Shown here one piece after another: positions 3,963 through 64,000 of a DNA stretch of 64,000 nucleotides. Below the pieces are notes generated by a model. That model was not told the DNA's origin. It made no database searches and saw only the letters and a program-made list of their open reading frames with translations. The translations under genes and the position numbers were made by a program. Position 1 is the stretch's first letter. Each line of letters begins with the position of its first letter. The stretch is from an uncultured Candidatus Berkelbacteria bacterium (GTDB lineage Bacteria; Patescibacteriota; UBA1384; UBA12157; JAENIV01), in NCBI GenBank assembly GCA_963698075.1, contig OY969116.1, positions 542,131 to 606,130 of the forward strand, read 5' to 3'.

Positions 3963-4532
3963 CTAATATGTTTCTTCCCACTTTTGAACGGTTAAAACTT
4001 CATCATTAACATTGACAGTGGCCATTATCTTGCGATAGGCCCTACCCACTTGAGCGGTGGAGGTTATTTCAAAAGCCGTGCCAGTGCCAGTTATCTTGAT
4101 TGTACAATTTCCATCTTGGATCGTAAAGCTTGGTGGTTGGCTTGAATCAGTTCTGGCTAATCTCATTAAAGCGTCCTCCAGACAGCCTCGGGCCAGAGCA
4201 TCGGCTCGCGTTGCTTGTCTGGCAACCTGGGAGATATTGACCTCAGAGGAGGATATCGTGGCCACGGCCAAAGCAATTGCCAAGGCAGCGGCAGTGATCA
4301 TCAAAATCGCCACTAACATTCCTTGACCAGGGTTCCTTGAAAAAATCGCCTCGGGTCGACCCGTTCGCTTTGGCCACCCTAGCCGACCTACTCGGTTGCT
4401 TCCGTTTCGCCTCGCGCCTGGCTGCGGCGAGTCGGAGCGCAACCTCGACCGGCGCGCGCTCAGGGTCTCACCTTGGCTCCTTCCATCAGTTTTAAGTTTA
4501 AAGTTGTTTTTCGCATGCATTTTTAGTTTCAT
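3963..4532 (-). CDS. PilX-like minor pilin N-terminal-domain protein. The true start is probably the ATG at 4317-4319; the upstream 71 codons are a GC-rich repeat element read in frame.
   Basis: MLVAILMITAAALAIALAVATISSSE...RADALARGCLEDALMRL matches the PilX_N architecture. Residues 1-71 (RRSRLRSDSPQPGARRNGSNRVGRLG...) are encoded by repeat copy 4347-4476. Confidence 0.45.
   Translation of the reverse strand: MKLKMHAKNNFKLKTDGRSQGETLSARRSRLRSDSPQPGARRNGSNRVGRLGWPKRTGRPEAIFSRNPGQGMLVAILMITAAALAIALAVATISSSEVNISQVARQATRADALARGCLEDALMRLARTDSSQPPSFTIQDGNCTIKITGTGTAFEITSTAQVGRAYRKIMATVNVNDEVLTVQKWEETY
4347..4476 (-). repeat. GC-rich MITE-like dispersed element, copy 1 (minus orientation, inside the PilX-like ORF)
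   Basis: The reverse complement aligns with 7229-7382 and 60717-60836 (gccaggcgcga...agtaggtcggctagggt...gaacgggtcgacccgaggc). Confidence 0.7.
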
Positions 4533-4680
4533 ATGTTGAACATAAGGAGCGAGTCATGTGCCTTCCAAAGTAAATCGCGCAGGCGAGGCGCATGGTTAAG
4601 GCCGAGCCGAGCGCTTAGGCCCAAAATCCACGCTGGGGATTTTGAGGCCGGTACTTTGAAGGCATTGACGAGAGACTTTT

Positions 4681-5199
4681 CTATTTCCCCTCCAATACTG
4701 CTGCGGTTTCGAATTCGCGAGAGAAATTATTTTGTTTAAAGGTTATTTTAAATCTTATTTGGACGCTTTGAGCCTGGCCATTGGCAAGATGTTTAAAAAT
4801 ATTTTCTGAGATATCGATCGGCGTCACTTCCACTTTTGAATCTGTCAGCGCCATTGCCTGTCCCCCGCCTTCTTGATAAAAAATTTGACCATTTTCTAAA
4901 GAAAAAATTACTGGCAAGGAATTGATCGTCAAATTTAAATTATTGGCGGGATACGTTCCGGAAATGGCGCTGGCTTGACTCGTGGCCAAACTCAAACGCT
5001 CACACAAAAAACGGGCGTTTTGGGTGACTTCTGTTTGACCTTGGGAGGCCCCGCGGTTCTGGGCAATCCGCGTCACCAAATCAATAACCACCACTAAAAC
5101 AATGGCCGTAATGGCCAAATAAATTAACAGCTCGATGAGAGTAATCCCAGGCCTTTTTCTTAATTTTAAATTTTTAATTTTAAATTTTAAATTTCTCAT
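4681..5199 (-). CDS. Type IV pilin-like protein (prepilin-type N-terminal cleavage/methylation domain)
   Basis: KRPGITLIELLIYLAITAIVLVV is a class III signal with Glu at +5. Confidence 0.7.
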   Translation of the reverse strand: MRNLKFKIKNLKLRKRPGITLIELLIYLAITAIVLVVVIDLVTRIAQNRGASQGQTEVTQNARFLCERLSLATSQASAISGTYPANNLNLTINSLPVIFSLENGQIFYQEGGGQAMALTDSKVEVTPIDISENIFKHLANGQAQSVQIRFKITFKQNNFSREFETAAVLEGK

Positions 5200-7200
5200 C
5201 TAATAGCTCCAATTTACTCGCACCCAATCAACGATGGGGCTCGTGGTTTCATCTTGGGTATCAAGACGAATTTTATAACGCAGATATCGAGCCGGCTGGG
5301 GGGCGGCAGCCGAATAAAGTCCCGTCCAAATATTTTCTCCTGTCTTAGTGGAATACCAGGTACCGGTACCATTTGGACCCGACCAATTCCAGGTAGCGTT
5401 ATCATTATTAGCGGCCAATTGAATCCTGACCGTCGTGTTGGGCGGTAAAGCCCCTTCTAAATTCCAGGAAATTCGATTAAAACCGCCGCCGCCAGGATTA
5501 CCGGTATCCAAACTTGAGGATATTAATTCTCCCCAAGGCACATAGACTTCGGTTGCCGAAACAATTAAATAATAAGATAAGTCAACAAAGCTCGAGTCAG
5601 TAAAACTCCCCCCAGAATTGGTTGATCTTGTGGTTAGCGAATTTATCCCATCCCAATTAAGCGTGTTATATTCAACCAAATTGGGATTCGATTGGTTAGA
5701 AATCAGATAATTTCGATTCGAGCTCGAACCGGGCGAAGAAAAATAGAGCCGAAATTGATGATTGGCTGGCAGCGTAATTGATGAAGAAAAATTATGTTCT
5801 ACCCAAGAAAAACTGGTGCCTAAAGTCGTCGTCGCGACATCGATAAAAGTCTCGGGGGGGTTGACTAAATTAACCCCCGCCGTCAAGTCGTATAGACTAA
5901 CATATAAATTATCGTTTGGCAGGTTGTTTGCCGAGGAAGCCACATACAAAGCCACTCCTGCAACTTCTCTTTGAGTTGTCAAAGTGAAAGTCTCCCCTTC
6001 AAACCGCGTCCCATAAATATTGCGGCTGGCCCGGGTGTCATAAGGATTACCTTCAAAAGTGTTGTCACTAAAACCCAAAAGATAAATTGGTTGTTGATTA
6101 AGCGCCAGCCAAGAAGTGCCGTTGTATCTTAAAGTATTAGCTGAGGGGTCGCTCCGGCCGGATTTGGGAACGATTGAGTTATTGGGCAGACTGGCGCGGA
6201 TGTTGATATAGCGACTGTTACTCGGTGTCTGGCCAGAGCCGCTCCATTGGACCACCAGATGATAAACATTACCGGCCACCAGCGGCGCTGGACTGGTTAA
6301 ATTGATCGTTTGCCAACCGGTCGCTCCAAAACTGGCGGTGTTTGAGGCCAAAAATGTTCCCGAGGGATAATGATTACTGCTGTCGTCATCAGCTTGGATT
6401 CCATATTGATAATTGACATTGGCGCCGTTACGTTGGCTGTCAATATAAATTCGAATTTGATTGACATTGCTACTTTGTTGAGCTGTAAAACGCATGGAGA
6501 CACGCCGATTGGCGGCATTGAGGCTATAAATATAAGTCGTCGTATTGGCGATGAATTGATTGCCATATTTTGAAGTTCCGGCGCTGGGAATCTTGGCCAA
6601 TCGTAAAGTTCCAGCGATGCTGGTATCAATGTCGCCCGCGGCCTTGAAATTTTGAGTTATTGAAAAAAATTTATTACCGCTCCAATCATTTTGTCGCCAC
6701 AAGGAATTTTGATAGCGTCCGAGAAAATTTACGAGCTCAATTCCTGCCGAGCCTGGCCAAGTCACCTTGACAGTAATTTTTTGTGTTCCAGGATCGTCGC
6801 GGCCGGGATTGTAAGTGGTTTCAATATTCCCTGCGCCGTTATTTCCGGTACGAGAGACATTATCAATCTGAATTTGGCGGTTAAAAGTTAAATTATTGAT
6901 TGTGATTTGTTCATCACCAGCAGCTAGCGACCAACTATTGGCATTATTAATAGCGTGGTAAGGGTTACTCGATCCTTTATTATTGGTTCCTAAGGGTCGA
7001 TAGAGATTATTCCAATTTTCCATCTTTAAGGCCTTGGCGGCCGCCATTGCCTCAGCAGCAAGGAGTCTGGCGCTGTCGGTTCGCCAAGATTCACTTCCCC
7101 CGCGAATACCGACTAAAAATAAAGGAATAATCCCGGCCAAAACAAAAGCAATTACCCCCACCCCGATGATTGTTTCGACTAAAATTTGCCCTTTTTTCAT
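5200..7200 (-). CDS. Large (666 aa) type IV minor pilin-like protein, possibly a tip-associated adhesin
   Basis: The N-terminus KKGQILVETIIGVGVIAFVLAGII is prepilin-like. A long Asn/Ser/Thr-rich beta-type extracellular region follows. Confidence 0.6.
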   Translation of the reverse strand: MKKGQILVETIIGVGVIAFVLAGIIPLFLVGIRGGSESWRTDSARLLAAEAMAAAKALKMENWNNLYRPLGTNNKGSSNPYHAINNANSWSLAAGDEQITINNLTFNRQIQIDNVSRTGNNGAGNIETTYNPGRDDPGTQKITVKVTWPGSAGIELVNFLGRYQNSLWRQNDWSGNKFFSITQNFKAAGDIDTSIAGTLRLAKIPSAGTSKYGNQFIANTTTYIYSLNAANRRVSMRFTAQQSSNVNQIRIYIDSQRNGANVNYQYGIQADDDSSNHYPSGTFLASNTASFGATGWQTINLTSPAPLVAGNVYHLVVQWSGSGQTPSNSRYINIRASLPNNSIVPKSGRSDPSANTLRYNGTSWLALNQQPIYLLGFSDNTFEGNPYDTRASRNIYGTRFEGETFTLTTQREVAGVALYVASSANNLPNDNLYVSLYDLTAGVNLVNPPETFIDVATTTLGTSFSWVEHNFSSSITLPANHQFRLYFSSPGSSSNRNYLISNQSNPNLVEYNTLNWDGINSLTTRSTNSGGSFTDSSFVDLSYYLIVSATEVYVPWGELISSSLDTGNPGGGGFNRISWNLEGALPPNTTVRIQLAANNDNATWNWSGPNGTGTWYSTKTGENIWTGLYSAAAPQPARYLRYKIRLDTQDETTSPIVDWVRVNWSY

Positions 7201-7228
7201 AATTTTATTCCTAATTTACGAATTCATG

Positions 7229-7382
7229 CGGCCGAGGGGAGCCCCTGAACGAATGGCGGTCTCGACTGCGCTCATTATCGATGAGCCAGGCGCGAATTGA
7301 TAAGGAAGCAGTCGAGTAGGTTGGTTAGGGAGCCTGCACTGCCGAAGGTAAGGCATTCATGTGAACGGGGCGACCCGAGGCC
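7229..7382 (+). repeat. GC-rich MITE-like dispersed element, copy 2 (intergenic)
   Basis: ggccgaggggagcccctgaacgaatggcggtctcgactgcgctc...gaacggggcgacccgaggcc. This is a GC-rich patch in an AT-rich intergenic region, homologous to the other copies. Confidence 0.7.
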
Positions 7383-7388
7383 AGTATT

Positions 7389-7832
7389 TCATTCGATCAT
7401 TCCTTGAGCATTAATGGTCAATTCTTGCGTTTTGGCGGCAGTGCCAGAGAGTGTTATCATCCCCGGATTAATCGGCTTGCCCGACCTTATCGAGAATTCA
7501 AGACTATCGCCGCCGTCTGTTAGATTCCAGCTTAAATTAGTTTTATTGGGTAAGACTCTGACTGAATTTTCTTTCGCATTAGCCGCATATCCTGAGCCAC
7601 TATCGGCGAAAATAACCACTCGGCCGGTCTCCAAGTGGACTCCCCAAAGTTTATCGTCAATTTGAGCCTCTGAATTGGCTTGAGCCTCTTTCAAAGCACC
7701 GAGAACCATTGTCTGAGCCGTCTCAATATCACCGGCCTGTCCGAAGGAAACCAGACTCAAAGAAGCCAATCCGGTCATGATGGCTAAAACCCCAACGACA
7801 ATAATAACTTCGATTAAAGTATATCCCTTCAT
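7389..7832 (-). CDS. Type IV pseudopilin (GspH/FimT-like)
   Basis: MKGYTLIEVIIVVGVLAIM is a prepilin leader with a conserved Glu. Confidence 0.7.
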   Translation of the reverse strand: MKGYTLIEVIIVVGVLAIMTGLASLSLVSFGQAGDIETAQTMVLGALKEAQANSEAQIDDKLWGVHLETGRVVIFADSGSGYAANAKENSVRVLPNKTNLSWNLTDGGDSLEFSIRSGKPINPGMITLSGTAAKTQELTINAQGMIE

Positions 7833-9037
7833 TAAATTGTTCCGATTAATTGATATATCGGCACCACAATCGAAATCGCCATTCCCCCAATAAGCAAACC
7901 AACAATGACCAGTAAAACCGGTTCGATCAAACTGGTTAAGGTTTTTAAACTATTATCGGCCTGCTCCTCATAAAAATCGGCTAATTCAAGCAAAATCTTA
8001 TCGAGCTGGCCAGTTTTTTCACCGACACTGATCACCGAAATTAATAATCCCGGAAAATATTTTTCATCGCCCCGAAAAGCATTGGCCAAAGAAACACCTT
8101 TAATAATCTTCTCTTTGGCTTCACGAACTATTTTTTTATAAATCGCCAAACCCATCCCCTCGCTGGTAATTTCTAAAGCTTCACCGATGGGAATCCCACT
8201 GGCCAAGAGCCCACCCAGTACTCGAGCAAACCTCACCAGCTCCATTTGTCTTAAAAGATTTTTGGAAATGGGTATCCGATATAGGAGACGATTAAAAAAA
8301 GCTTTGACTTTATCCAATCTTAATAAATATATTCCCAAGGATACCAAGATCACCAAAATGGCGATCGTTAAGGCCGGTTTGTATGAGGCCGCTTTGGCTA
8401 AGAAAAAAAGCACCCGGGTGGTCACCGGAATTTTTAGACTCGACCCTTCAAAAACCGTGGCCAGCCGAGGAATGACAAAGGTAATAATCAAAACTAAAAC
8501 ACCCAAAACGCCGGCTATTAAAACGACCGGGTAAATCAAGGCATTTTTGACCTTGGAAACAAGGGCGTATTCTTTTTTAAGTTGAAGATTTAAACGCCTC
8601 AGGGATTCATCCAATTTGCCTGAGGCCTCGCCTGCCTTGATCATATTGATAAAAACAGGACTAAAATCTTTGGGATAATGGCTTAATCCTTCCGACAAGG
8701 GTTTGCCATTTTCAATTGAGAATTTAAGATCACCTAAAATTAATCTAAAATAAGAATTACGAGTATCGGCGGCTAAAACATCTAAGGCCGGCGGCAGATT
8801 TACGCCGGCTTTAATCATCGTGGCCAGATTTCCGGTCAAACTGATCTTTTCAAGATAAGAAATTTTCTTCGAAAAAAGGGCGATATTTCTCAAATTTTTT
8901 TGTTTTTGAGCAACTTTGACGACTAATAAGTTTTCTGATCGCAAAAAATCAATGACCGTTTGGCGATCAACCGCCTCCATTTCCCCCTTTTTTAAATTAC
9001 TAGCCTCATCAACCGCCAAATATTCAAAAAAAGGCAT
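7832..9037 (-). CDS. pilC: Type IV pilus platform protein PilC (GspF family)
   Basis: It has two GspF repeats and three TM segments, a typical length of 401 aa, and sits immediately downstream of pilB. Confidence 0.85.
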   Translation of the reverse strand: MPFFEYLAVDEASNLKKGEMEAVDRQTVIDFLRSENLLVVKVAQKQKNLRNIALFSKKISYLEKISLTGNLATMIKAGVNLPPALDVLAADTRNSYFRLILGDLKFSIENGKPLSEGLSHYPKDFSPVFINMIKAGEASGKLDESLRRLNLQLKKEYALVSKVKNALIYPVVLIAGVLGVLVLIITFVIPRLATVFEGSSLKIPVTTRVLFFLAKAASYKPALTIAILVILVSLGIYLLRLDKVKAFFNRLLYRIPISKNLLRQMELVRFARVLGGLLASGIPIGEALEITSEGMGLAIYKKIVREAKEKIIKGVSLANAFRGDEKYFPGLLISVISVGEKTGQLDKILLELADFYEEQADNSLKTLTSLIEPVLLVIVGLLIGGMAISIVVPIYQLIGTI

Positions 9038-19199: not shown

Positions 19200-19613
19200 C
19201 TATCTCACTATCCCCTTCACTTTCTCCACGATTTGGGCCGGCGTCATATCCGATTTAACCAAATAATCAGCCGCTCCCATTTTTTGCCCCTTTTCTCTGT
19301 CTTCGACTGCTCCACCTAGATTGGTGAGAAGAATGACCGGAATATCTTTGGTTGCCGCGTCAGCTTTAACTTTCTCCAAAACCTGAAAACCATCTAGTTT
19401 CGGCAGCATCACATCCAAAAGAATGATATTTGGTTTGGGCGAGGCCTTAGCGAGCTCGTCTAAGCCGGCCTGGCCATCAAAAGCCGCCAAAACCTTAAAA
19501 CCTTCTTTTTCAAATTTCCGGGTGTACATGCGGATTAAGATTTGATCATCTTCGACCAGTAATATAATCTTCTGTTGCTCCATAAGACCTCCTAAATTTA
19601 TGTTAAAACTCAA
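19200..19613 (-). CDS. Stand-alone response-regulator receiver domain (likely true start at MEQQKIILLVEDD)
   Basis: LLVEDD...ILLDVMLPKLDG...K, with no output domain. Confidence 0.8.
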   Translation of the reverse strand: MSFNINLGGLMEQQKIILLVEDDQILIRMYTRKFEKEGFKVLAAFDGQAGLDELAKASPKPNIILLDVMLPKLDGFQVLEKVKADAATKDIPVILLTNLGGAVEDREKGQKMGAADYLVKSDMTPAQIVEKVKGIVR

Positions 19614-19699
19614 AACGCAAATGTCAAAGTAACAGCAAAAAATTAAAATGATTTTCTTTTATGCTTTTAGTTGTAGTTTTAAGTTTTGACATTTTAACT

Positions 19700-20440
19700 T
19701 TAAGTTTCCCTTTTTGGTAACGCCAAACTAAAAGTTGAACCTTTGCCCGGTTCCGAATGTTCCAGCCAAAGTTTTCCGCCTTGGGCTTCGGTTAAACGTC
19801 GGGCCAAATATAATCCTAAGCCGGTGCCTTTTTCTTGACCCGCCAAGGAAAGATTGCCTTTGGAAAAAATCTCAAACAAACGATCTTGATCTTCTTTTTT
19901 AATTCCAGTGCCAGTATCAGCCACGTCAGTAATCACCCAATTATTATCAAGACGATGAGAAACCTTAATTTGCCCGTTCGCGGGCGTAAATTTGACCGCA
20001 TTGGAAACCAAATTCATTAAAATTTCTCGGGCGCGGTCGGGGTCGGCTCTGACAAAAAGATCCTCGGAAGATGGCTGATACTCTAAAGCTAGTTGCTTTT
20101 CTTTGGCCGGGATTTGAAAATCGGAAACAATCATTTTGGACTCGCGGCTGATATCAACTTGGCCAATTTTTAGCGAAATTTTTCCTTCTTGGATCCGGGC
20201 AACCTTCATCATGTGTTCGACCAAACGAATCAATCGATCATTGGCAATGTAGGCTTGGGCGATAAACTCCTTAACATCGTCGGAAATTGGCCCAGCATCA
20301 CCTTCCAAAATCATTGATAAATAGCCCTTAACGCCGGTCATCGGCGTCCGGAGCTCATGCGACATCACGCTTAAAAACTCCTGCTTTTGGGCTTCCAAAA
20401 GATGTTTTAATTTCTGGATTCTTGCTTTATCTTCTTCCAT
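19700..20440 (-). CDS. Soluble histidine kinase core (HisKA + HATPase_c only, no sensor domain)
   Basis: SHELRTPMTGVKGY, plus N/G boxes GTGLGLYLARRLTEAQGG. Confidence 0.8.
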   Translation of the reverse strand: MEEDKARIQKLKHLLEAQKQEFLSVMSHELRTPMTGVKGYLSMILEGDAGPISDDVKEFIAQAYIANDRLIRLVEHMMKVARIQEGKISLKIGQVDISRESKMIVSDFQIPAKEKQLALEYQPSSEDLFVRADPDRAREILMNLVSNAVKFTPANGQIKVSHRLDNNWVITDVADTGTGIKKEDQDRLFEIFSKGNLSLAGQEKGTGLGLYLARRLTEAQGGKLWLEHSEPGKGSTFSLALPKRET

Positions 20441-23442: not shown

Positions 23443-23540
23443 GAGGCCGAAGTGGTGTCCCGAGTGAAGTGGCGGCGTCCCGAACGTAGTTCGAGACAGG
23501 GATGGAGTGGGTGCCCGAGAGCGAGGGATACCACGAGGCC
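23443..23540 (+). repeat. GC-rich MITE-like dispersed element, copy 3 (intergenic, upstream of ftsK)
   Basis: gaagtggcggcgtcccgaacgtagttcgagacaggg...gggtgcccgagagcgaggg is nearly identical to the stretch within valS at 63645-63738. Confidence 0.75.
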
Positions 23541-23564
23541 GAATAATTATAATAATTAACGAAA

Positions 23565-28624: not shown

Positions 28625-28756
28625 TCGCCCTCCTGGAGAAATGTCTATTACTAATTTACTTTTCTAACCCTTTTCTGTCAAGACAAGAAACACCCCGGCG
28701 GTAAACTACCCGCCGGGGCGCACATTGTGTTCGATCTTCTGAATATCCCTTCTTCG

Positions 28757-30364
28757 TCAGGCCTGGACCAGCCTCGCGAGCCCTGTGCCGCGACGGCGCT
28801 TGGCGATCTCGTCCGCCCCTGGCAGGAAGATATCGGCCTCGCCGAGCCCCAGGAAACGAGAGACCGTGTCCACCAGGTGGGCCTTCTCGCCCGCGGCAAC
28901 AGCGAAGTGATGGACAGTGGTCTTCCACTTCCCGTCGACGCCCAGGACGAGTGCCTCTTCGAGCTCATCGAAGGTGGCATCGTCCACGCCCACGTAGAAG
29001 TGGGTGCCCAGTGTCATGGGGCCGTTGACTACTAGCGCCTCAAAGGCAGCGAGCGAGAAGCTGACGCCGGCCGCGCTGTTCCGGTTGCAGAGCCGGGCCA
29101 GCGTCATTGGCGTCCCCTTCTCGAAGTTCCCTACACCATCGAGGAAGGCGTAGGCCGGCCGCGAGGTCGGGATGATCCAGCCCTGCCTGGCGACGCAGCG
29201 GGTGCAGTTGACCGAGGGGAACGGCCCGCAGTGCCAGACCAAGATCCCGATGATCTTTCCGTCATCGAGGATCACCGTGATGGTGATGTCCGCGAACATC
29301 GGCGGTTTGCCACAAGGGTCGAGGGCCTGAAGCATCATCATCGAGAGCAGGCCACCCCTGTCGGTCTCGCAAGCGACCGGCACGCCGTGGCGGAGCAGCT
29401 CACCGCCAACCATGCAGAGCATGAGCTGGTAGTTCTCCATGCACGCCGGCCAGCAGTTGTGGGTCAGCCCGTCGAGGTCGTACCTCAGGCAGAGTTCGAG
29501 CTCCGCGATGATCGCCGCGGCGATCCGTCTGGCCGCCTCAGGCGGGATCTGGCTGAGATCGATGCCGCGCACCTGCATCGCCTGACACTCTGCCTCGAGC
29601 ATCGGCTGGTCGGGGTCCTGAAGCAGGCTGACCACGCGTCCGAACAGCTCGACCTGATCGATGGGGACCACCTCGACACCGAACCGCGTCCCCAGGACCG
29701 CCGGGCTGCATTCGATCGCTTCGAAGGTGGGCTGGTCGCCGCCGATCTGGCCGATGCGCACGCCCCGCGACATGTTCCGTACTGCCCTAGCTGCGGCGAC
29801 GAAGTCGCGGAACTTGGCAATCTCCTTCTGGCTGCCGGGCTGGCTCTGGCCAACGTAGTCATAGTGGTAGACCCCGTAGTCGGCCACGAGCTTCGAGGCG
29901 GGCTGGAATCCACACCAGGCATCGGTCTCGCGCGTGCCGTCGGTGTTCGGGTAGCCATCGTAGGGCGCGAAGAGCAACACCGGTAGGCCGAGCTCCTGGG
30001 CGAGCACGGCGATTTCGTGCTCGCAGCCGTAGTTGCCGAAGCCCACCTCGAGCGCATCGGCACCCTTGAGCTTGAGGTCCGCCGCCAGGCGCAGCACATC
30101 TGTTCCCGGAGAGATCACACCGCCATCGATGACAGTGATGTCCTGGCGGCAACCAAGCTCTGCGAGCCTGGCTGCGTGTCGCTGGCCCGGTGCCTTCTGG
30201 CTGAAGACCTGCCGCGAAGCGGTCACCCGCACCAACCCGAGAGGCCACTGGGTACGCCGACATTCCTTCCACTGTCTTACCAGTTCTTCTGAACGGGTTT
30301 GCGTCGCCACGACTTTCACCTCCTCGGTTACCTCCAGGCTCACGCCTGTGAGGGGGACTGCCAA
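28757..30364 (-). CDS. L-fucose/L-arabinose isomerase family protein (COG2407-like)
   Basis: A 535-aa protein of about 62% GC with many spurious overlapping ORFs. The assignment rests on overall resemblance to FucI/AraA-like sugar isomerases and is uncertain. Confidence 0.4.
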   Translation of the reverse strand: MAVPLTGVSLEVTEEVKVVATQTRSEELVRQWKECRRTQWPLGLVRVTASRQVFSQKAPGQRHAARLAELGCRQDITVIDGGVISPGTDVLRLAADLKLKGADALEVGFGNYGCEHEIAVLAQELGLPVLLFAPYDGYPNTDGTRETDAWCGFQPASKLVADYGVYHYDYVGQSQPGSQKEIAKFRDFVAAARAVRNMSRGVRIGQIGGDQPTFEAIECSPAVLGTRFGVEVVPIDQVELFGRVVSLLQDPDQPMLEAECQAMQVRGIDLSQIPPEAARRIAAAIIAELELCLRYDLDGLTHNCWPACMENYQLMLCMVGGELLRHGVPVACETDRGGLLSMMMLQALDPCGKPPMFADITITVILDDGKIIGILVWHCGPFPSVNCTRCVARQGWIIPTSRPAYAFLDGVGNFEKGTPMTLARLCNRNSAAGVSFSLAAFEALVVNGPMTLGTHFYVGVDDATFDELEEALVLGVDGKWKTTVHHFAVAAGEKAHLVDTVSRFLGLGEADIFLPGADEIAKRRRGTGLARLVQA

Positions 30365-32840: not shown

Positions 32841-33022
32841 ATAAATTATTTTCTAGAACGGAATAAATTCCTTCTTAAAAGAGAGCTTCTTTTATCGTTA
32901 ATTCTATTATAGCATATCTTGAGAAAAATGTCAAATATCAAAGCCCAAAACTACAACTTAAATGAAAAAGGAAATAATCTTTTTTGCTTTTAGTTAAAGC
33001 TTTAACTTTTGAGTTTTTAGTT

Positions 33023-33796
33023 TTAAACTTGGAGCTCGAGTAAATCTCGAGCGACAATTACTTCTCCTTTAAAAAATCTTGCCGCATCTTTTTTCGGATC
33101 GTATTTTTGTATATATAACGGCGCCATGTGGGTTATCACCAGCTTTTTGACCCCATTTTCAGCGGCGAATTTCCCTGCCCGTGAACCGGTAAAATGAGAT
33201 TTTGGCTGAACTTCATCGGGCCAAGCGGCTTCAACCATTGCCAAATCGGCATTTTGAAGACATTTTTTGAGACCTTCGGATTCGACCGAGTCGCCAGAAT
33301 AAGCAAAAACTTTACCTTCAGATTCGAGACGATAACAGATGGGTTTCATGCCGTCATTATGGATAGTCGGATAGGAATAAATTGTCCAGCCCTTGTCTTC
33401 AATTTTATCCTCGGATATCTCTTTGACCTCAATGTTATCAAGCGACCTTTCTCCATATCGGATGATGCGGACGATCGCCTTGAGATTTTCTAATGTTCCT
33501 TCTGGTCCATAAATTTTTAAGGGCTTAATCCTCACTGGCCATAAACCATGGTCAGCCGGTGGCGCGGTCGTGATATGTAAAAGAGTCACTAAATCATTAA
33601 CATGGTCCCCATGCCAATGGGTAATGAATAACGCGTCCAATTGATTAACATGAACGCCAATTTTTAAAAGCTGTTCAATTGCCCCTCGGCCAAAATCAAA
33701 ACAAAGATTTTGGCCGGCGGTTTGAACAAGATACGCCGCCGACCGCCTCTCCAATTCCGGTTGATAGGTGCCAGATCCGAGTATAGTTAATTTCAT
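33023..33796 (-). CDS. MBL-fold metallo-hydrolase (RNase Z/BN-like)
   Basis: It has HWHGDH and downstream His/Asp ligands. Confidence 0.6.
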   Translation of the reverse strand: MKLTILGSGTYQPELERRSAAYLVQTAGQNLCFDFGRGAIEQLLKIGVHVNQLDALFITHWHGDHVNDLVTLLHITTAPPADHGLWPVRIKPLKIYGPEGTLENLKAIVRIIRYGERSLDNIEVKEISEDKIEDKGWTIYSYPTIHNDGMKPICYRLESEGKVFAYSGDSVESEGLKKCLQNADLAMVEAAWPDEVQPKSHFTGSRAGKFAAENGVKKLVITHMAPLYIQKYDPKKDAARFFKGEVIVARDLLELQV

Positions 33797-47596: not shown

Positions 47597-47929
47597 ATGC
47601 CTCTTACCAAATCAGCCAAAAAGGCCTGGCGATCATCGGAAAGAAAGCGCCAAAGAAATCAAAAACAGAAAGTTGAATTAGAAAAAGCGCTGAAAAACCT
47701 GTCTCGCCGAGCCAAGGCGGAAGTGAGCGCAAGCATCAACGAGGTTATTTCTAAAATTGACAAAGCCGCTAAAACTCATCTTATTTCCAAAAACAAAGCC
47801 GCCCGGCTGAAGTCGAGGTTGATGAAGAAGTTCGGCACGCCAAAGAATGTTAAAACTAAAAGCGCAAATGTTAAAGCAACAACTAAAAGCAAAAAGGAAA
47901 TTCCAAAGAAATCTCCAAAGAAAAAATAG
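47597..47929 (+). CDS. rpsT: 30S ribosomal protein S20 with a Lys-rich C-terminal extension
   Basis: MPLTKSAKKAWRSSERKRQRNQ is an S20 N-terminus. The ORF-track start at 47567 is an upstream extension. Confidence 0.75.
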   Translation: MPLTKSAKKAWRSSERKRQRNQKQKVELEKALKNLSRRAKAEVSASINEVISKIDKAAKTHLISKNKAARLKSRLMKKFGTPKNVKTKSANVKATTKSKKEIPKKSPKKK

Positions 47930-48013
47930 TAAATTTCTTCGAAATAAATCTTTTTTCCTTTAAGCTGCAGTTTTTAGCTTTTAATTTTAAGTTTTAAGTT
48001 TTCAAGGAGGGTA

Positions 48014-54137: not shown

Positions 54138-55124
54138 TCAGAGCAATTTTTGCTGGTTGTTAGCGCGTCGGGATTCCGGTAATCGCGAGATCAAGGATTT
54201 AAAACCGAGTTTATTTAGTAATTTGATAACGTTATTTTGATCGTAGTCGTGGATGCGTGAATCAGCTAAATTAAATTCGAGCGGGACATCATCAATAATT
54301 TTTGATAATTTTTGTGACAAAAATGCTTGCTCTTTGTTCTCTTTTAATAAGATTTGAACTTTTCCGCTAATTTTTGCAATATTTTTATAAATTTTTTCTA
54401 AATTTCCAAATTCGGAAATCAATTTCGCTGCGCCTTTTTCGCCAATCCCTGGCACCCCGGGAATGTTATCGCTCGGATCTCCTTTGAGCGCCTTAAAATC
54501 GACGAATTGTTTGGGCTCGAGTCCGTAGCGTTCGCGGACTTTCTCAACATCATACATCATCGCAGAATTTACGCCTCGCGCCATTGAATAAACCTTAGTT
54601 TGCTCATCCACCAGTTGTAGGCAGTCTAAGTCTCCGGTGACAATAATAAATTCAAGAGTAGGATTTAGGGTGTAGCGTTTAGCGTTTAGTGATTTGGAAT
54701 TTTGAATTTGGGATTTGTTTAGGATTTCGGATTTAGGATTTCGGATTTTCGCGATAATACTCGCGATCACATCCTCGCCTTCGTACCCTTCCACCGCAAA
54801 AACCGGAATATTCATCGCTTTCAAAATTTCTTTTGTATATGGCACTTGAGCCATTAAATCTTCAGGCATCGGCGCACGATGAGCCTTGTATTCAACATAT
54901 TCGATATGCCGTTTGGTCGGCTTGGGTAAATCAAAACCGCAGGCCAAATATTCCGGCTCTAAGGCTTTAATCGCCGCCAATAAGGCGCTCGTAAATCCAT
55001 AAGCGGCATTAAGCTGCACGCCTTTTTTGTTCGTCAAAGGCGGCAAGGCATAATAAGCCCTAAAAATCAAGGCAAAGGCATCAATTAGGACAAATCTATT
55101 CTTGATCATCTTTGCCAAAATCAT
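54138..55124 (-). CDS. 5'-3' exonuclease (Pol I N-terminal / FEN-like) carrying an in-frame repeat insertion. Start taken at MILAKMIK; the ORF-track start at 55268 is an upstream extension.
   Basis: FVLIDAFALIFRAYYALPPL...GDPSDNIPGVPGIGEKGAAKLI (H3TH). The stretch RNPKSEILNKSQIQNSKSLNAKRY is encoded by repeat 54658-54749. Confidence 0.75.
   Translation of the reverse strand: MILAKMIKNRFVLIDAFALIFRAYYALPPLTNKKGVQLNAAYGFTSALLAAIKALEPEYLACGFDLPKPTKRHIEYVEYKAHRAPMPEDLMAQVPYTKEILKAMNIPVFAVEGYEGEDVIASIIAKIRNPKSEILNKSQIQNSKSLNAKRYTLNPTLEFIIVTGDLDCLQLVDEQTKVYSMARGVNSAMMYDVEKVRERYGLEPKQFVDFKALKGDPSDNIPGVPGIGEKGAAKLISEFGNLEKIYKNIAKISGKVQILLKENKEQAFLSQKLSKIIDDVPLEFNLADSRIHDYDQNNVIKLLNKLGFKSLISRLPESRRANNQQKLL
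54658..54749. repeat. AT-rich MITE-like element (ggatttcggattt family), partial copy inserted in frame in the exonuclease gene
   Basis: gatttggaattttgaatttgggatttgtttaggatttcggatttaggatttcggatttt. Confidence 0.65.
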
Positions 55125-59410: not shown

Positions 59411-60345
59411 CGTCGTCGAAAACTTTCTGCTAATTTAAATATTTTATACCATAACGGCTTATATACCAGGTCCCAACTACCAACGATATTGATTTTTTGT
59501 CCGCCGAATTGTTCTTTAAAAAAAGTCAAATTAGCGTATTTGTGATTTTCGCCCGCTTCCGGCGGCGCTATCGCCAATAAATCATAAATTTTACATCCCC
59601 GCTTTTTGGCTTCCAAAATTGCCTGCCAATGGGTCGCGTACGGTGCCATCACTTCTTTGTGCAATCGCGACGTTCCACCATACAAATATGAAGCCGCGCG
59701 GTCATAAAATGTAACAATGATTGCTGCCAAAGGAACATGATTATAGCGAGCAATAATTATCGCCGCTTCGCCTCTAGGATATAAACTTTTCATCATTTCC
59801 AAAAAATACTTCTTGTCGCGCAAAGAAAGTTTCTGATGTTCGGCAGTTTGCTGATAAAGGTCATAAAAAATTTCAATGCCATCATTTAATCGGTCAATGG
59901 GGCATATCGTCACCTCAACGCCGTGTTTTTGGCTGACTTTGATATTATAGCGTCCTTTCGGCTTCATCTGGGCTAAAATTTCTTCTTCGGATTTGGAAAT
60001 ATCAATTATTTGCCGCCATTCGGGCTGAAGTTCCTCGAAAGCTTTAATGAATTTTTTTTCACGCAATTTTTGAACCATTTTTTTATCATTTTCGTCCAAA
60101 ATTTCCAATCTTACAAATATGGTTCCATTTTTTTTAATATTTTTTTGTATTTTTTCTAAAAAATTTTGTAAATCTTTGATCGTCCTCCATTCAACCTCCG
60201 GCGCATACAAAAACGATAATCCCATTGGCAATGGTTTTTCCAGAACAAAAATATCATCGATTTTCTCGCTTTTCCAACCCTGCGAGACTTTAAGATCAAC
60301 CCATTCCTGGGTTTGTAATAAAGACTTCATGAGTTGATTATACAA
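59407..60345 (-). CDS. FemAB-family peptidyl/aminoacyl transferase
   Basis: It has a FemABX double-GNAT architecture in 312 aa, and its 3' end overlaps the Mur ligase start by 4 nt. Confidence 0.65.
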   Translation of the reverse strand: MYNQLMKSLLQTQEWVDLKVSQGWKSEKIDDIFVLEKPLPMGLSFLYAPEVEWRTIKDLQNFLEKIQKNIKKNGTIFVRLEILDENDKKMVQKLREKKFIKAFEELQPEWRQIIDISKSEEEILAQMKPKGRYNIKVSQKHGVEVTICPIDRLNDGIEIFYDLYQQTAEHQKLSLRDKKYFLEMMKSLYPRGEAAIIIARYNHVPLAAIIVTFYDRAASYLYGGTSRLHKEVMAPYATHWQAILEAKKRGCKIYDLLAIAPPEAGENHKYANLTFFKEQFGGQKINIVGSWDLVYKPLWYKIFKLAESFRRR

Positions 60346-60380
60346 CGACTTTAAGGTAAAATTAAAGTCGTTAGTTCAGG

Positions 60381-60486
60381 GGTTAAGGTTAGGATGCTAT
60401 TTTGGTCTATGGTCTAAAGTTTTAAGTCAATAATTAATCTAATAACCATTTACTCTTAACCAAACCAGCTTCTTTACCCTAACCCA
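60381..60486. repeat. ggttaaggttagg MITE-like element, copy 2 (divergent promoter region)
   Basis: ggttaaggttaggatgctattttggtctatggtctaaag...ccctaaccc. Confidence 0.5.
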
Positions 60487-60499
60487 AATACTATAAACT

Positions 60500-61750
60500 A
60501 TGAAAATATTAGCGATCGAAACATCTTGTGATGAAACAGCTGCATCTGTTATTGAAAAAACGCCATCGGGCGTTAAAATTTTGAGTAATATTGTTGCTTC
60601 GCAAATTGAGATTCATCAAAAATATGGCGGGGTTTTCCCCGAGCATGCCTCCCGGGCGCATGTCGAAAAAATAATTCCAGTAGTTGAACAGGCATTAATC
60701 CAGGCCGAAGGGATATCCCTGAGCGAGCGGCGGTCTCGACTGCGCTCCGTTTTTGGCGAGTCACGCATGAGCCAAAACGGAAGCAGGCGAGTAGGTCGGT
60801 TAGGGAGCCCAAATGCGAACGGGGTATCCCGAGGCCAAAATGATATTGATATTATCGCGGTAACGACAGGTCCAGGGCTGATCGGTTCTCTTCTAGTTGG
60901 GGTTAATTTTGCCAAAACTCTTTCATACGCGAAGAATTTACCCATAATTGGCATTAATCATTGGCTCGGGCATATTTACTCCAACTGGGCCGAAAAACCA
61001 TTTCCGCAGTTTCCTGCTTTGATATTGATCGCGAGTGGCGGACATACAGGTCTAGTTTTAATGAAATCGCACAAAAAAATAATTCCACTCGGCGAAACTT
61101 TAGACGATGCCGCCGGCGAGGCGTTCGACAAAGTGGCGAAATTATTAGATCTCGGATACCCCGGCGGGCCGGCGATAGCCGCTGCTGCCGCAGCTAAATT
61201 CAAAAATCAAAATGCAAAAAACAAAAAAACTGCAATTCAAAAATTAAAAATAGAATTTCCGAGAAGCATGTTGGACAGCGGAGATTTTAATTTTAGTTTT
61301 TCGGGCTTAAAAACGGCTGTATTATATAAATACAAAGAAGTGATTAGTCGTGATTCAGGAGTGATTAATAGTGATTTGTCGTCTGACAATCAATCACCTA
61401 ATCACAATAAATCACACGGCAAAGCCGCAAATCACTTAACTGCCGCTATCGCGGCCGAATTCCAACAAGCCGTCATTGATATTTTAATCGGCAAAACCAT
61501 CCAAGCCGCCTATGAATATCAGCCAAAATCCATCTGTCTCTGCGGCGGAGTGAGCGCGAATAAAGAACTTAGAGAACAAATGAAAAAGGCCGTTTCCGGC
61601 CTCCCCAGCCATCCATCCTTCCATGTTCCAGCCATCCACCTTTCAACAGATAACGCCGCCATGATCGGCATTGCCGCCGCTTATCACCTAAATGAAGCGA
61701 CCACATGGAAACGAGTGCATGCTAACGCTAATTTAAAACTCTACAACTGA
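60500..61750 (+). CDS. tsaD: tRNA N6-adenosine threonylcarbamoyltransferase TsaD (Kae1/Gcp), expanded by an in-frame repeat insertion plus low-complexity inserts
   Basis: Its MKILAIETSCDETAAS, HxxGH and GGVSAN motifs are canonical. The roughly 39-aa segment ERRSRLRSVFGESRMSQNGSRRVGRLGSPNANGVSRGQN has no counterpart in canonical TsaD and is encoded by repeat 60717-60836. Confidence 0.85.
   Translation: MKILAIETSCDETAASVIEKTPSGVKILSNIVASQIEIHQKYGGVFPEHASRAHVEKIIPVVEQALIQAEGISLSERRSRLRSVFGESRMSQNGSRRVGRLGSPNANGVSRGQNDIDIIAVTTGPGLIGSLLVGVNFAKTLSYAKNLPIIGINHWLGHIYSNWAEKPFPQFPALILIASGGHTGLVLMKSHKKIIPLGETLDDAAGEAFDKVAKLLDLGYPGGPAIAAAAAAKFKNQNAKNKKTAIQKLKIEFPRSMLDSGDFNFSFSGLKTAVLYKYKEVISRDSGVINSDLSSDNQSPNHNKSHGKAANHLTAAIAAEFQQAVIDILIGKTIQAAYEYQPKSICLCGGVSANKELREQMKKAVSGLPSHPSFHVPAIHLSTDNAAMIGIAAAYHLNEATTWKRVHANANLKLYN
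60717..60836 (+). repeat. GC-rich MITE-like dispersed element, copy 4 (in frame inside tsaD)
   Basis: ggcggtctcgactgcgctc...aaacggaagcaggcgagtaggtcggttagggagcc...gaacggggtatcccgaggcc is homologous to 7229-7382. Confidence 0.8.
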
Positions 61751-61752
61751 AA

Positions 61753-62253
61753 CTATTTGACAATCCCATATTTCTCTTCAAGCTCGGCTTTCCTTCCTTC
61801 CATTAACTCATATCTTGCCCGGTCTTCCGGCGTTTTTACAAGTCTTGCTGACGCTAATATTCTACTTATCTCTTGATATTCCTCTTGGGGCCCCATCGCC
61901 CCAATTGTCCTAAACAATGATTCCATTGCTTGTTTGTATTGCCATTGTTTTGATTGGACATCCTCTGGGCTACCCTGCTGAACAGAAACTTGATTTTGTA
62001 TGAAATCAACCATATCCAATTTAGTCTCAAGTAATTGATCTCTCATGCCACCTTTATGTGCATCAATCATGCCCCCAACGACTCCGACAATGTCTGGATT
62101 GGTTTTTTGACTTGGATCCATCGTAACAATCATTCTTACTAGCCGATTGCCTTCCGGATTTGTCCTATCTAGTAGTTGTGCCAGATTGCTTCTCGTTTCA
62201 TCCGTTAAAGTATCAGCAAATTTTATTGACTTTTCTGCTTCCAGATCCATCAA
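61753..62253 (-). CDS. Hypothetical protein
   Basis: 166-aa ORF with no recognisable domain. Confidence 0.4.
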   Translation of the reverse strand: MMDLEAEKSIKFADTLTDETRSNLAQLLDRTNPEGNRLVRMIVTMDPSQKTNPDIVGVVGGMIDAHKGGMRDQLLETKLDMVDFIQNQVSVQQGSPEDVQSKQWQYKQAMESLFRTIGAMGPQEEYQEISRILASARLVKTPEDRARYELMEGRKAELEEKYGIVK

Positions 62254-62334
62254 ACCTCCTTTGTTTTAAAAATAATTTGGCTAATTTTATTCTATTCTTG
62301 TCTAAATTTATGTCAAATGATAGGATAAGAGTAT

Positions 62335-64000
62335 GAAAGAGTTATCAAAAGCCTATGATCCAAAGGCAACTGAGGATCGCATATATTCTATGTGGGAGAA
62401 AAGCGGCGCATTTTCTCCCCAGCTAACACCTGAAACCTTAAACCTGAAACCTTTTGTGATTGTCATTCCCCCGCCCAATGTTACTGGCTCTCTCCATATG
62501 GGTCATGCTTTGAACAACACGATTCAAGATATTTTGATAAGACGCTCGCGGATGAAGGGCGTGCCGACTTTGTGGGTGCCGGGAACTGACCACGCAGGAA
62601 TTGCCACCCAAAATGTGGTTGAAAAGCAGCTCGCTAAAGAGGGTAAAAACCGCAACGATTTAGGCCGGGAAGAATTTGTCAAAAGAGTTTGGCAGCACGT
62701 TGACGAATACGGCCATATTATCATTGACCAGCTCAAGAAAATGGGCTGTTCCTGCGACTGGTCGCGCCAGCGCTTCACTATGGACAAAGACTATTCCAAA
62801 GCCGTCAAAGCCGCTTTCAAACACTATTATGACAAAGGTTGGATTTATCAAGGCGAGCGCGTGATTAACTGGTGCGTCCGTTGCCAAACCGCGCTTTCGG
62901 ATATTGAAGTGGAATACAAAGAACAGCCGACCAAACTTTATTTCTTTCGCTACGATAAGAATTTTCCTATCTCAATCGCCACCGCCAGACCAGAAACCAA
63001 ACTCGGCGATACGGCGGTGGCCGTCAATCTAAATGATAATCGCTATAAGAAATATGTCGGCCAAGAATTCGATGCCAATTTTGCCGGCAAAAACTTAAAA
63101 ATTAAAATTATTTCAGAGCCGTCGATTGATCCGAAATTTGGCACCGGCGCGGTCGGGATAACGCCAGCTCATTCAATCGTTGATGACGAAATCGCCGCCA
63201 AAAACAAACTCGAATCAATAAAAATTATCGATCAATATGGGAAAATGACCGAAGAAGCCGGCAAAGATTATGAAGGTCTCAAAACCGTCGAAGCCCGGGG
63301 AAAAGTAATTGAATGGCTTAAAAATAATAATCTCCTTGAAAAAGAAGAAGATATTACTAATAACATCAGCGTTTGTTATCGCTGCGGCAAAGAACTGGAG
63401 CCGCAACCTTCCAAACAATGGTTTGTCAAAATGTCAGAATTGATTAAACCGGCAATTGAGGCGATTGAAACCGATCAAATATCATTTACACCAACGCGTT
63501 GGAAAAAAATCTATCTAGATTGGATGAAAAACATCCGTGACTGGTGTATTTCCAGGCAAATCTGGTGGGGACACGGATTGCCAGTCTGGCAATCTGAACT
63601 CAAAAGTAAAAACTCAAAAGTAAAAACTGAAGAACAAAAAGACGACCGAGGGGATGCCCTGAGCGAAGTGGCGGCGTCCCGAACGCAGTTCGAGACAGGG
63701 CTGGGGTGGGTGCCCGAGAGCGAAGGGCGATCCGAGGGAGAAATTTACGTCGGAGACAATCCTCCCCCCGGTTATTCCCAAGTCTCCGACGTATTAGATA
63801 CTTGGTTTTCGAGCGCCTTGTGGCCTTTCGCCACGCTTGGGTGGCCTAAAGAAACAGATGATTTAAAATATTTTTATCCGACAACAATTCTCTCCACTGC
63901 CCGCGACATTAATATGCTTTGGGTGGTGAGGATGATTTTTTCTGGCCTTGAGTTTATGAAAGAAAAACCCTTCAGCCAAGTCTATGTTCATCCGACGATT
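62335..64000 (+). CDS. valS: Valyl-tRNA synthetase (window-truncated at the 3' end) carrying an in-frame repeat insertion
   Basis: It has a HIGH-region PPPNVTGSLHMGHAL and a CISRQ-WWGHxxP motif. The stretch RGDALSEVAASRTQFETGLGWVPESEGRSEGE before DTWFSS is encoded by repeat 63645-63738. Confidence 0.9.
63645..63738 (+). repeat. GC-rich MITE-like dispersed element, copy 5 (in frame inside valS)
   Basis: gaagtggcggcgtcccgaacgcagttcgagacagggctggggtgggtgcccgagagcgaaggg matches copy 3 at about 90%. Confidence 0.8.

What the first reader, a model, noticed from the sequence alone, without database searches (positions are those of the whole stretch)
4347..63738. GC-rich miniature repeat family with three sense-oriented, frame-preserving insertions into essential genes (tsaD, valS, a pilX-like gene)
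Five copies of one ~100-150 bp GC-rich element were found: 4347-4476 (minus), 7229-7382, 23443-23540, 60717-60836 and 63645-63738. They share conserved termini, ...ccgaggggaNcccctgaRcgaaKggcgg at the 5' end and gaacgggg..cccgaggcc at the 3' end, and a variable core. Two copies are intergenic. Three lie inside ORFs in the sense orientation without breaking the reading frame. In tsaD the insert adds about 39 residues (ERRSRLRS...GVSRGQN) exactly at a surface loop between the conserved GISLS and DIDIIAVTTGPGL segments. In valS it adds about 32 residues in the variable region before DTWFSS. In the PilX-like gene it supplies an N-terminal extension. The tsaD and PilX-like inserts even yield related peptides (RRSRLRS...NGSRRVGRLG). 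This mirrors Rickettsia palindromic elements (RPEs), which also insert in frame into protein-coding genes. To my knowledge it has not been described for this kind of AT-rich, CPR-like genome.
Basis: seen in the sequence. Interest (0 to 1): 0.8.

Follow-up and report, generated by a model that had tools for sequence, protein, structure and literature searches.

The report
Structured GC-rich mobile repeat in genes
A small GC-rich DNA element that folds into a conserved rod-shaped hairpin has spread through the tiny genomes of Patescibacteria (CPR), sitting between genes and also in frame inside working genes such as tsaD and valS, much like the palindromic elements of Rickettsia.

Summary
A profile built only from 39 copies found in other metagenomes hits exactly the five stated places in the window (E 2e-21 to 9e-11) and nothing else.

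The element is a 95-155 nt family with a covarying multi-helix fold:
- a closing stem
- purine-rich internal loops
- a helix P2
- a variable central hairpin
- a conserved unpaired UAGGUYGGYUAGGG
- an optional extra hairpin

I found 45 distinct copies, all on low-GC contigs. The named ones are Patescibacteria MAGs. There is no Rfam match and I found no paper describing it.

The tsaD and valS copies are in-frame insertions into loops that relatives lack. The third copy sits exactly where homologues of a ComGG/PilX-like pseudopilin have their start codon, so an N-terminal leader extension is plausible but unproven.

- 'GISLS' is encoded by the element. It is not conserved TsaD sequence.
- 'Sense-oriented' is a small-sample artefact. 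Elsewhere the family sits in ORFs in both orientations (P-type ATPase, MurD and GT2 antisense; DnaX sense).

One new result: untranslated copies between same-direction genes are almost always antisense to those genes (16:1). The G-rich strand is the one whose fold is conserved.

Best reading: a non-autonomous selfish element of the RPE kind, new for CPR. How it moves is unknown.

The parts
4344..4480 (-). Copy c1, long subtype (58-nt central hairpin). It is in sense orientation at the 5' end of the ComGG/PilX-like pseudopilin ORF.
   Evidence: nhmmer and CM hits. The ORF 3963-4532 is open through the element. Homologues without the element start M-x(2-10)-[GA]Q[GA]MLVAIL exactly where the element ends. 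The same arrangement occurs in L049, L077 and L092.
7229..7385 (+). Copy c2, long subtype with the optional extra hairpin P4. It is intergenic and antisense to both flanking pilin genes: 3 nt after the stop of 7389-7832(-) and 28 nt before the start of 5200-7200(-).
   Evidence: Fold -64 kcal/mol, z -3.97. No frame is open on either strand.
23444..23543 (+). Copy c3, short subtype. It is intergenic, 62 nt upstream of the ftsK start and antisense to it.
   Evidence: Fold z -4.32. Antisense copies of other subtypes sit at the equivalent place upstream of ftsK in L027 and L050.
60702..60839 (+). Copy c4, long subtype. It is in frame and in sense inside tsaD, encoding about residues 68-113 (QAEGISLSE...NGVSRGQ).
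63643..63742 (+). Copy c5, short subtype. It is in frame and in sense inside valS, encoding about residues 437-470 (DRGDALSEVAASRTQFETGLGWVPESEGRSEGE).
60500..61750 (+). Host gene tsaD (416 aa).
   Evidence: Pfam PF00814 precomputed. PDB TsaD matches.
62333..64000 (+). Host gene valS. Its 5' part runs off the end of the window.
   Evidence: Match to 1gax ValRS, E 1e-149.
3963..4532 (-). Host ORF: a ComGG/PilX-like minor pseudopilin in a type IV pilus operon. The true start codon is uncertain.
   Evidence: ComGG match at 19 bits, below the cutoff. Homologue P0128 carries PF14341 PilX_N. The operon encodes PilM/N/O, pilins, PilC and PilB.

Best explanation
This is a family of non-autonomous, selfish mobile elements of Patescibacteria. 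Each is 95-155 nt and GC-rich, in roughly 40-45% GC genomes.

The G-rich strand folds into a conserved rod with these parts:
- outer stem GCC/GGC
- a GA loop
- stem P1
- tandem G.A and GAAA/GAAA loops
- helix P2
- a variable central hairpin P3
- a conserved unpaired UAGGUYGGYUAGGG
- sometimes an extra hairpin P4

Shown:
- Copies are dispersed, and sites that are filled in one genome are empty in relatives.
- The fold covaries.
- Copies lie both between genes and inside ORFs, in either orientation, always with the host frame kept.

Inferred:
- New copies land more or less anywhere. Only those in tiny intergenic spacers, in permissive surface loops or in cleavable leader peptides survive, which is why the frame is always kept. 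Inside ORFs they are simply translated as extra, probably disordered, loop peptide.
- The element is copied or recognised as a single strand of the G-rich polarity (ssDNA or RNA) by an enzyme supplied in trans that I could not identify.
- The folded sense RNA is harmful in untranslated mRNA. Sense copies therefore persist only where ribosomes read through them, and untranslated copies are nearly all antisense to the operon.
For: Family and spread:
- There are 45 distinct copies in independent assemblies. Four named genomes are all Patescibacteria MAGs.
- A profile that excludes the window recovers the five window copies.

Structure:
- 95.6% of cells are paired against 86.6% in shuffles. 66 cells show double-sided changes against 18.8 in shuffles, and 0/500 shuffles reach these values. 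Slid controls give 25-47% paired.
- P2 switches AU:32/GC:11 and CG:31/GC:12.
- P3 hairpins have unrelated sequence but all pair (median z -3.3).

Strand asymmetry:
- MFE is -52.8 vs -42.3 kcal/mol (paired Wilcoxon p 8e-9 over 44 copies), with 171 vs 64 G.U pairs.
- In the curated helices there are about 50 G.U against about 11 A.C, including a predominant U.G at one P1 position.

Insertions:
- Empty sites exist in relatives.
- Host proteins are TsaD (3 sites), ValRS, DnaX, GT2 (2 sites), P-type ATPase, MurD, a YraN-like protein and pilin leaders.
- The TsaD insert is low-confidence in AlphaFold2 while the rest of the fold is confident.

Orientation:
- Intergenic copies in tandem gene contexts are 16 antisense to 1 sense. 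Translated sites are 9 sense to 6 antisense (Fisher p 0.0017). This is despite more open frames on the antisense strand (1.8 vs 1.2).

Precedent: in-frame repeats of this kind are documented in other bacteria (PMC3184786).
Against: - No transposase, reverse transcriptase or longer autonomous version was found in the window or in the roughly 685 kb of loci held.
- No target-site duplication of 3 nt or more was found.
- No presence/absence polymorphism between near-identical strains was seen, so recent movement is not demonstrated.
- The same sites recur with different subtypes: upstream of ftsK in 3 loci, upstream of a response regulator in 2, and in the pilus operon in 5. This could mean a host function or site targeting rather than random insertion plus selection.
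- If genes are co-oriented with replication, the G-rich strand of intergenic copies lies on neither the lagging-strand template nor the non-template strand of transcription. That does not fit known ssDNA transposition models.
- Translation of the inserts was not observed.
Confidence: 0.65

Rival explanations
1. A host-serving cis element. The hairpins would act in transcripts as 3' stabilisers, terminators, insulators or regulators between genes, like REP/BIME or ERIC. The copies inside ORFs would then be by-products.
For: - Untranslated copies sit 0-14 nt after a stop codon and 7-80 nt before the next start, in one preferred orientation.
- Equivalent positions are occupied in several genomes: upstream of ftsK, upstream of a response regulator, and in the pilus operon.
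- Flanks on the 5' side are A-rich, so the antisense transcript has a U-rich stretch after the hairpin in some copies.
Against: - In those copies the mRNA carries the worse-folding, pyrimidine-loop strand, while the conserved wobble pairs and G.A loops belong to the other strand.
- c2 and c3 have no U-tract, and no terminator was called at c2.
- About a third of the copies are inside ORFs or leaders.
- Subtypes differ at the same site, which suggests turnover rather than conservation.
Confidence: 0.15
2. An SINE-like retroelement. Sense transcripts of master copies, for example those in expressed genes or pilin leaders, would fold into the rod, be recognised by a reverse transcriptase (group II intron or DGR type, common in CPR), and be copied back into DNA.
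For: - The fold of one strand is selected, with G.U wobble and RNA-like motifs: tandem G.A, GAAA loops and a modular optional hairpin.
- Sense copies exist in transcribed ORFs.
Against: - No RT gene was seen near any copy.
- There is no poly-A or other 3' tail and no TSD.
- Known bacterial retrotransposition favours the lagging-strand template, which would give sense rather than antisense copies relative to co-oriented genes (my own knowledge, not tested here).
- G.T wobble and sheared G.A pairs also occur in ssDNA, so RNA is not required.
Confidence: 0.2
3. An intervening sequence removed from the mRNA (intron-like, a self-cleaving RNA, or bypassed by the ribosome), so that the host proteins are not actually extended.
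For: - It is a highly structured RNA-like element placed precisely in essential genes.
- Sense-strand copies in untranslated regions are avoided.
Against: - Every ORF copy keeps the frame open and in phase, although the conserved core length is not a multiple of 3.
- Six ORF sites carry it antisense.
- There is no match to any ribozyme or intron family in Rfam, even at E<=10.
- The ends are not conserved with respect to exon sequence.
Confidence: 0.03
4. Not mobile at all: ancestral protein segments or gene fragments that happen to resemble each other.
For: None beyond the conserved peptide signature.
Against: - Nucleotide-level similarity exists between ORF copies and intergenic copies.
- Some intergenic copies have stops in every frame.
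- Unrelated host proteins carry the same element.
- Close homologues lack the segments.
Confidence: 0.01

Closest known systems
Rickettsia palindromic elements (RPE; Ogata et al. 2000, as cited in PMC3184786)
   Same: - About 100-150 bp, hairpin-forming, many dispersed copies in a small genome.
- Found between genes and fused in frame inside protein-coding genes, including housekeeping ones.
- No associated transposase known.
   Different: - No sequence relation was tested or expected, and the phylum is different (Patescibacteria).
- This element is GC-rich within a lower-GC genome.
- It has a multi-helix fold with covariation, conserved purine loops, a conserved unpaired 14-mer and swappable hairpin modules.
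- It shows a clear functional strand and an orientation bias that depends on whether the copy is translated.
Bacterial MITE-like repeats that fuse with ORFs (BOX/RUP/SPRITE of pneumococcus, BRE of Bordetella, ERIC/RU of enterobacteria, Coxiella MITEs; PMC3184786, PMC5896051, PMC2759123)
   Same: They are small, non-coding, multicopy and able to fold. They are documented to extend or interrupt ORFs in frame at the 5' end, at the 3' end or internally.
   Different: - Classical MITEs are defined by terminal inverted repeats matching a partner IS and by target-site duplications. Here no TSD and no partner were found.
- The two arms are not simple inverted repeats. The loops are mirror-like purine.purine mismatches.
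REP/BIME with RAYT, and IS200/IS605-derived hairpin elements
   Same: Function depends on a hairpin on one particular strand, recognised as single-stranded DNA. Such elements lack classical TIRs and TSDs.
   Different: - REPs are about 20-40 nt and extragenic.
- No RAYT or TnpA(Y1) gene was seen, and there is no conserved GTAG head.
- The orientation relative to the likely replication direction is opposite to the IS608 rule.
GC clusters and 'byp' elements of yeast mitochondrial genomes (my own knowledge, not checked here)
   Same: GC-rich mobile hairpins in an AT-rich compact genome that also land inside protein-coding genes.
   Different: Those are organellar. Byps are skipped by the ribosome. 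Here nothing suggests bypass, and the frames stay open.

Membership tests
In-frame-inserting miniature repeat (RPE-like kind) | Many dispersed copies of one short non-coding sequence | tested here: met
   Five copies in 64 kb. 45 distinct copies in other assemblies.
In-frame-inserting miniature repeat (RPE-like kind) | Copies inside protein-coding genes that keep the host reading frame, at sites that are empty in relatives | tested here: met
   TsaD, ValRS, DnaX, GT2, ATPase and MurD carry copies. Sites are empty in relatives.
In-frame-inserting miniature repeat (RPE-like kind) | Palindromic or hairpin-forming sequence | tested here: met
In-frame-inserting miniature repeat (RPE-like kind) | The insert is actually translated and the host protein stays functional | not testable with these tools
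   Indirect only: open frames, an essential single-copy host gene, and an AlphaFold2 model that keeps the TsaD fold with a low-pLDDT insert.
RPE families of Rickettsia (homology) | Sequence similarity to RPE-1 to RPE-8 consensus | not tested
The different phylum and composition make homology unlikely.
MITE (classical) | Terminal inverted repeats | tested here: inconclusive
   The ends pair (GGCC...GGCC plus P1). However, they covary between copies and carry conserved mismatches, which fits a structural stem better than a transposase-binding TIR.
MITE (classical) | Target-site duplication | tested here: not met
   No direct repeat of 3 nt or more in the true flanks exceeds the permuted controls.
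MITE (classical) | A related autonomous IS with the same ends | tested here: not met
   No 5' half is followed by a distant 3' half in any locus. All unmatched pattern hits are chance hits in 55-73% GC contigs. There is no transposase among the window ORFs scanned or among recurrent neighbours. Only about 0.7 Mb was searched.
REP/RAYT or IS200/IS605-type hairpin element | Strand-specific hairpin | tested here: met
REP/RAYT or IS200/IS605-type hairpin element | Cognate HUH/Y1 transposase in the genome | not testable with these tools
   The full 929 kb genome could not be fetched. None was seen in the window.
Known structured RNA family (Rfam 15) | A covariance-model match | tested here: not met
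   No match at gathering threshold in the window. Only noise at E<=10 on c2 and c3.
Intron / self-splicing or excised element | No constraint on frame, a single orientation in genes, and a ribozyme core | tested here: not met
   The frame is always open, both orientations occur, and there is no ribozyme match.

The most novel reading that the evidence does not exclude
The G-rich strand may be an active RNA, for example a processing or cleavage signal, or the template recognised by a mobilising enzyme. Its folding in untranslated mRNA would be harmful. Selection would then leave sense copies only where ribosomes unfold them (ORFs and pilin leaders) and antisense copies everywhere else. That would make this a new class of structured mobile RNA module whose survival depends on translation, rather than a passive RPE-like DNA repeat.
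Probability: 0.2. Interest if true: 0.8.

Novelty: new member of a known kind. Interest (0 to 1): 0.55.

Why it matters
CPR/Patescibacteria genomes are among the smallest and most streamlined known. Even so, this family occupies intergenic spacers and the coding sequence of core genes (tsaD, valS, dnaX, murD) in many lineages.

- Annotation: 'lineage-specific insertions' in CPR proteins, and inflated protein lengths, can be repeat-derived. The family is a ready marker for such cases.
- Protein engineering: the repeatedly hit sites are a natural map of permissive loops in essential enzymes.
- Mechanism: the family offers a tractable case for the unsolved question of how RPE-like elements move. 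It has a well-defined covarying fold, a functional strand and a strong context-dependent orientation bias. These predict what kind of enzyme to look for.

Tried and rejected
- Exact look-up of the window's TsaD to reach the rest of the 929 kb contig: not on record.
Then no hit reached E<=10, because short peptides cannot be significant at that database size.
- Genome-contig scan with a 3'-end pattern: too strict. It gave 4 true hits and 1 chance hit, and the source genome is not in that collection.
- Three viral-contig scans: nothing real. The 18-mer hits score only E>1 with the covariance model.
- Rfam at gathering and at E<=10: nothing.
- Core length modulo 3 as a test of frame selection: uninformative. 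Core lengths of genic copies fall in several classes, so the exact ends vary by 0-3 nt.
- Target-site duplication search: none.
- Search for an autonomous version or a recurrent neighbouring enzyme: none. The recurrent neighbours are pilus, FtsK and response-regulator genes.
- Terminator reading for c2: no terminator-like site.
- The covariance model does not detect the other hairpin inserts in TsaD of L001 and L004, so those are separate families.
- Intron, intein and DGR readings were considered and dropped: both orientations occur, frames stay open, and the host genes are unrelated.
Full report
**1. Checking the observation**

Reading the five stretches showed one shared sequence pattern.
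- The repeat finder independently paired c3 with c5 (88% over 81 nt), c2 with c4 (77-90%) and c1 with c4 in reverse complement (80% over 55 nt).
- A profile of the five copies found only those five in the window.
- The fair test was a profile built from 39 copies taken from other metagenomes, excluding the window. It hit 60702-60837, 7229-7383, 4346-4479(-), 63643-63740 and 23444-23541 with E from 2e-21 to 9e-11. The next hit had E=2.
- A covariance model gave the same five.

**2. Anatomy**

Each copy folds into a long rod (z about -3 to -4 for four copies and -1.2 for c1). After collecting relatives I aligned 44 distinct copies. From outside to inside the architecture is:
- an A-R lead-in
- outer stem GCC/GGC, extended by a G-C pair that covaries with the flanking base
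- a GARG/CGAG loop
- stem P1, about 9-10 bp
- a tandem G.A loop
- a 2-bp GC step
- a GAAA/GAAA loop
- helix P2, (A/G)UG(C/G)C with G(G/C)C(U/C)
- a central hairpin P3
- a conserved unpaired UAGGUYGGYUAGGG (CAGGGMUGGRGUGGG in the c3/c5 subtype)
- in three copies an extra hairpin P4 (c2, L003 second copy, L066)

Covariation is strong:
- 95.6% of cells are paired against 86.6% in column shuffles.
- 66 cells show double-sided changes against 18.8 in shuffles. 0/500 shuffles reach either value.
- Slid controls give 25-47% paired.
- P2 flips between AU/CG and GC/GC states (32:11 and 31:12).

P3 ranges from 22 to 79 nt with at least five unrelated sequence types. All form hairpins (median z -3.3). 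The long type keeps its own internal motifs (GCUCCG...CGGAAGC and a GAGCCAGGCGCGA loop) with freely covarying stems.

There is no Rfam family match at gathering threshold. At E<=10 on c2 and c3 only noise appears.

**3. Which strand matters**

It has 171 G.U pairs against 64.
- In the curated helices there are about 50 G.U cells against about 11 A.C cells. One P1 position is predominantly U.G.
- The internal loops are mirror-like purine.purine mismatches, not inverted repeats. They make sense only as a folded single strand.
- I infer that the element is selected as a single strand of this polarity. Whether that strand is RNA or ssDNA cannot be decided here.

**4. Distribution**

- A 3'-end pattern scan of one genome per species gave four true hits, all 'Patescibacteria group bacterium' MAGs, plus one chance hit.
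- A 5'-end pattern scan of metagenome contigs gave 84 loci. Profile search found 53 copies across all loci held plus the window, 45 of them distinct. The 5'-pattern loci without a copy are chance hits, almost all on 55-73% GC contigs.
- The window's TsaD lies on a 929,420-bp contig. Its closest named relative is TsaD of a Berkelbacteria genome, at 54% identity.
- The window itself encodes a type IV pilus operon, FtsK, S-layer-homology proteins and two-component systems.

**5. Copies inside genes**

*TsaD*
- The element covers about residues 68-113.
- Aligned relatives P0003, P0008, P0013, P0041, P0074 and P0089 have nothing there.
- In Thermotoga TsaD the region corresponds to a 12-residue link between residues 58 and 70.
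- AlphaFold2 predicts a confident TsaD fold with pLDDT 43-63 across the insert.

*ValRS*
- The element encodes about 32 residues between the WWGH and DTWFSS blocks.
- T. thermophilus ValRS has 26 residues there.
- ValRS of L001 and L004 lacks the whole segment.

*Other genomes*
- Sense copies: TsaD at two further sites (one gene carries two copies), DnaX at one site in two species, and a GT2 glycosyltransferase.
- Antisense copies: a P-type ATPase, MurD, a YraN-like protein and GT2. One GT2 gene carries one sense and one antisense copy.
- The frame is open in every case.
- 'Sense-oriented' is therefore not a family property.
- Usually only one sense frame is open, and 1.8 antisense frames on average. 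This is why sense inserts give similar peptides.

**6. The third window case**

- The ORF 3963-4532 is a ComGG/PilX-like pseudopilin (weak ComGG match; a homologue carries PilX_N).
- Eleven homologues without the element start with a short leader, M-x(2-10)-[GA]Q[GA]MLVAIL. In the window the element ends exactly where their start codon lies, and the next in-frame ATG is after the GQG motif.
- The frame is open through the element to an upstream ATG.
- The same arrangement, with different P3 subtypes, occurs in L049, L077 (good Shine-Dalgarno plus ATG upstream) and L092. Another pilin gene in L092 has a sense copy in its leader.
- With about 1.2 of 3 sense frames open, four in-phase cases are modest evidence (roughly p 0.03) that the element is translated as a long leader. 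Prepilin processing would then remove it. This is inference.

**7. Untranslated copies**

- With simple ORF calls, 17 intergenic copies (about 16 independent sites) have both neighbours on the strand opposite to the element. The neighbour's stop codon lies 0-14 nt from the element's 3' end, and the next gene's start lies 7-80 nt from its 5' end. c2 and c3 are of this kind.
- Only one untranslated copy (L029) is in sense in a tandem context.
- Against 9 sense to 6 antisense for translated sites, the difference is significant (Fisher p 0.0017; binomial 1 of 17, p 0.0003).
- Position is explained by genome compaction. Orientation is not.
- My preferred reading is selection against the folded sense RNA in untranslated mRNA. 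An insertion mechanism with strand preference is the alternative.
- If genes follow replication, as the window's GC skew and gene direction suggest, the bias is opposite to the IS608 rule.

**8. Mobility evidence and its limits**

For mobility:
- many dispersed copies
- empty sites in relatives
- unrelated host genes
- different subtypes at the same site
- other, unrelated hairpin families at the very same TsaD sites in L001 and L004

Against or missing:
- no target-site duplication
- no autonomous partner or recurrent enzyme gene
- no strain-level polymorphism

**9. Comparison with what is known**

- In-frame fusion of small repeats with genes is documented for RPE, BOX/RUP/SPRITE, BRE and enterobacterial RUs (PMC3184786), and for Coxiella MITEs (PMC5896051, listed).
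- I found no paper on such elements in CPR.
- By behaviour this is the RPE kind. By definition it is not a classical MITE, since it has no TSD and no partner IS. It matches no Rfam family.

**10. Verdict**

This is a real, widespread, previously undescribed family of the known RPE-like kind. The structural definition and the translation-dependent orientation bias are new and testable. The mechanism of movement remains unknown.

Noticed in passing
window 61345-61425 (tsaD residues ~284-308): A second lineage-specific insert in the same tsaD. It is an AT-rich imperfect palindrome made of GTGATT/AATCAC units (fold -31.6 kcal/mol) encoding ...SGVINSDLSSDNQSPNHN.... Similar peptides sit at different sites of TsaD in P0013, P0041 and P0078, so this looks like another in-frame hairpin family. 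There is no other copy in the window.
   Followed up: partly
L001 10001-11239 and L004 10001-11131 (TsaD genes of related contigs): Other GC-richer rod-hairpin inserts with GAGCGAGCG-like ends occupy the same two TsaD sites: two copies in L001 (SSEVQSESQTPQ...SLNDERA) and one in L004. The covariance model of the present family does not detect them. ValRS of L001 also has an extra segment after GWPK.
   Followed up: partly
window 869-1004 and 54685-54753: Arrays of AT-rich GGATTT/GAATTT-type units (84% identical over 64 nt between the two places). Similar 'GAATTCAGAATT' and 'AATTTAGGATTT' strings flank element copies in other contigs.
   Followed up: no
window 19600-19708, 32926-33026, 47845-48005, 63602-63628: An AT-rich repeat family (up to 86% complementary over 49 nt) at gene boundaries. 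One arm lies inside valS, immediately 5' of copy c5, in the K/N-rich stretch SELKSKNSKVKTEEQK.
   Followed up: no
window 28709-30287: A 65% GC island in a roughly 44% GC window. It is covered by a 535-aa ORF (28757-30364, minus strand) with no Pfam match. It may be horizontally acquired.
   Followed up: partly
L087 522-631 versus L009 6765-6874: The two share the same 5' flank and 5' part of the element, inside a P-type ATPase gene. The 3' part of the element and the flank differ, leaving the ATPase gene truncated in L087. This is either recombination between copies or an assembly chimera at the repeat.
   Followed up: no
window c3 with L027 and L050; L034 with L099; window c1/c2 with L092, L049, L077 and L029: Equivalent genomic positions are occupied in several genomes by copies of different P3 subtypes, and once in the opposite orientation. 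The positions are upstream of ftsK, upstream of a response regulator, and two places in the pilus operon. This suggests hot spots or turnover by recombination.
   Followed up: partly
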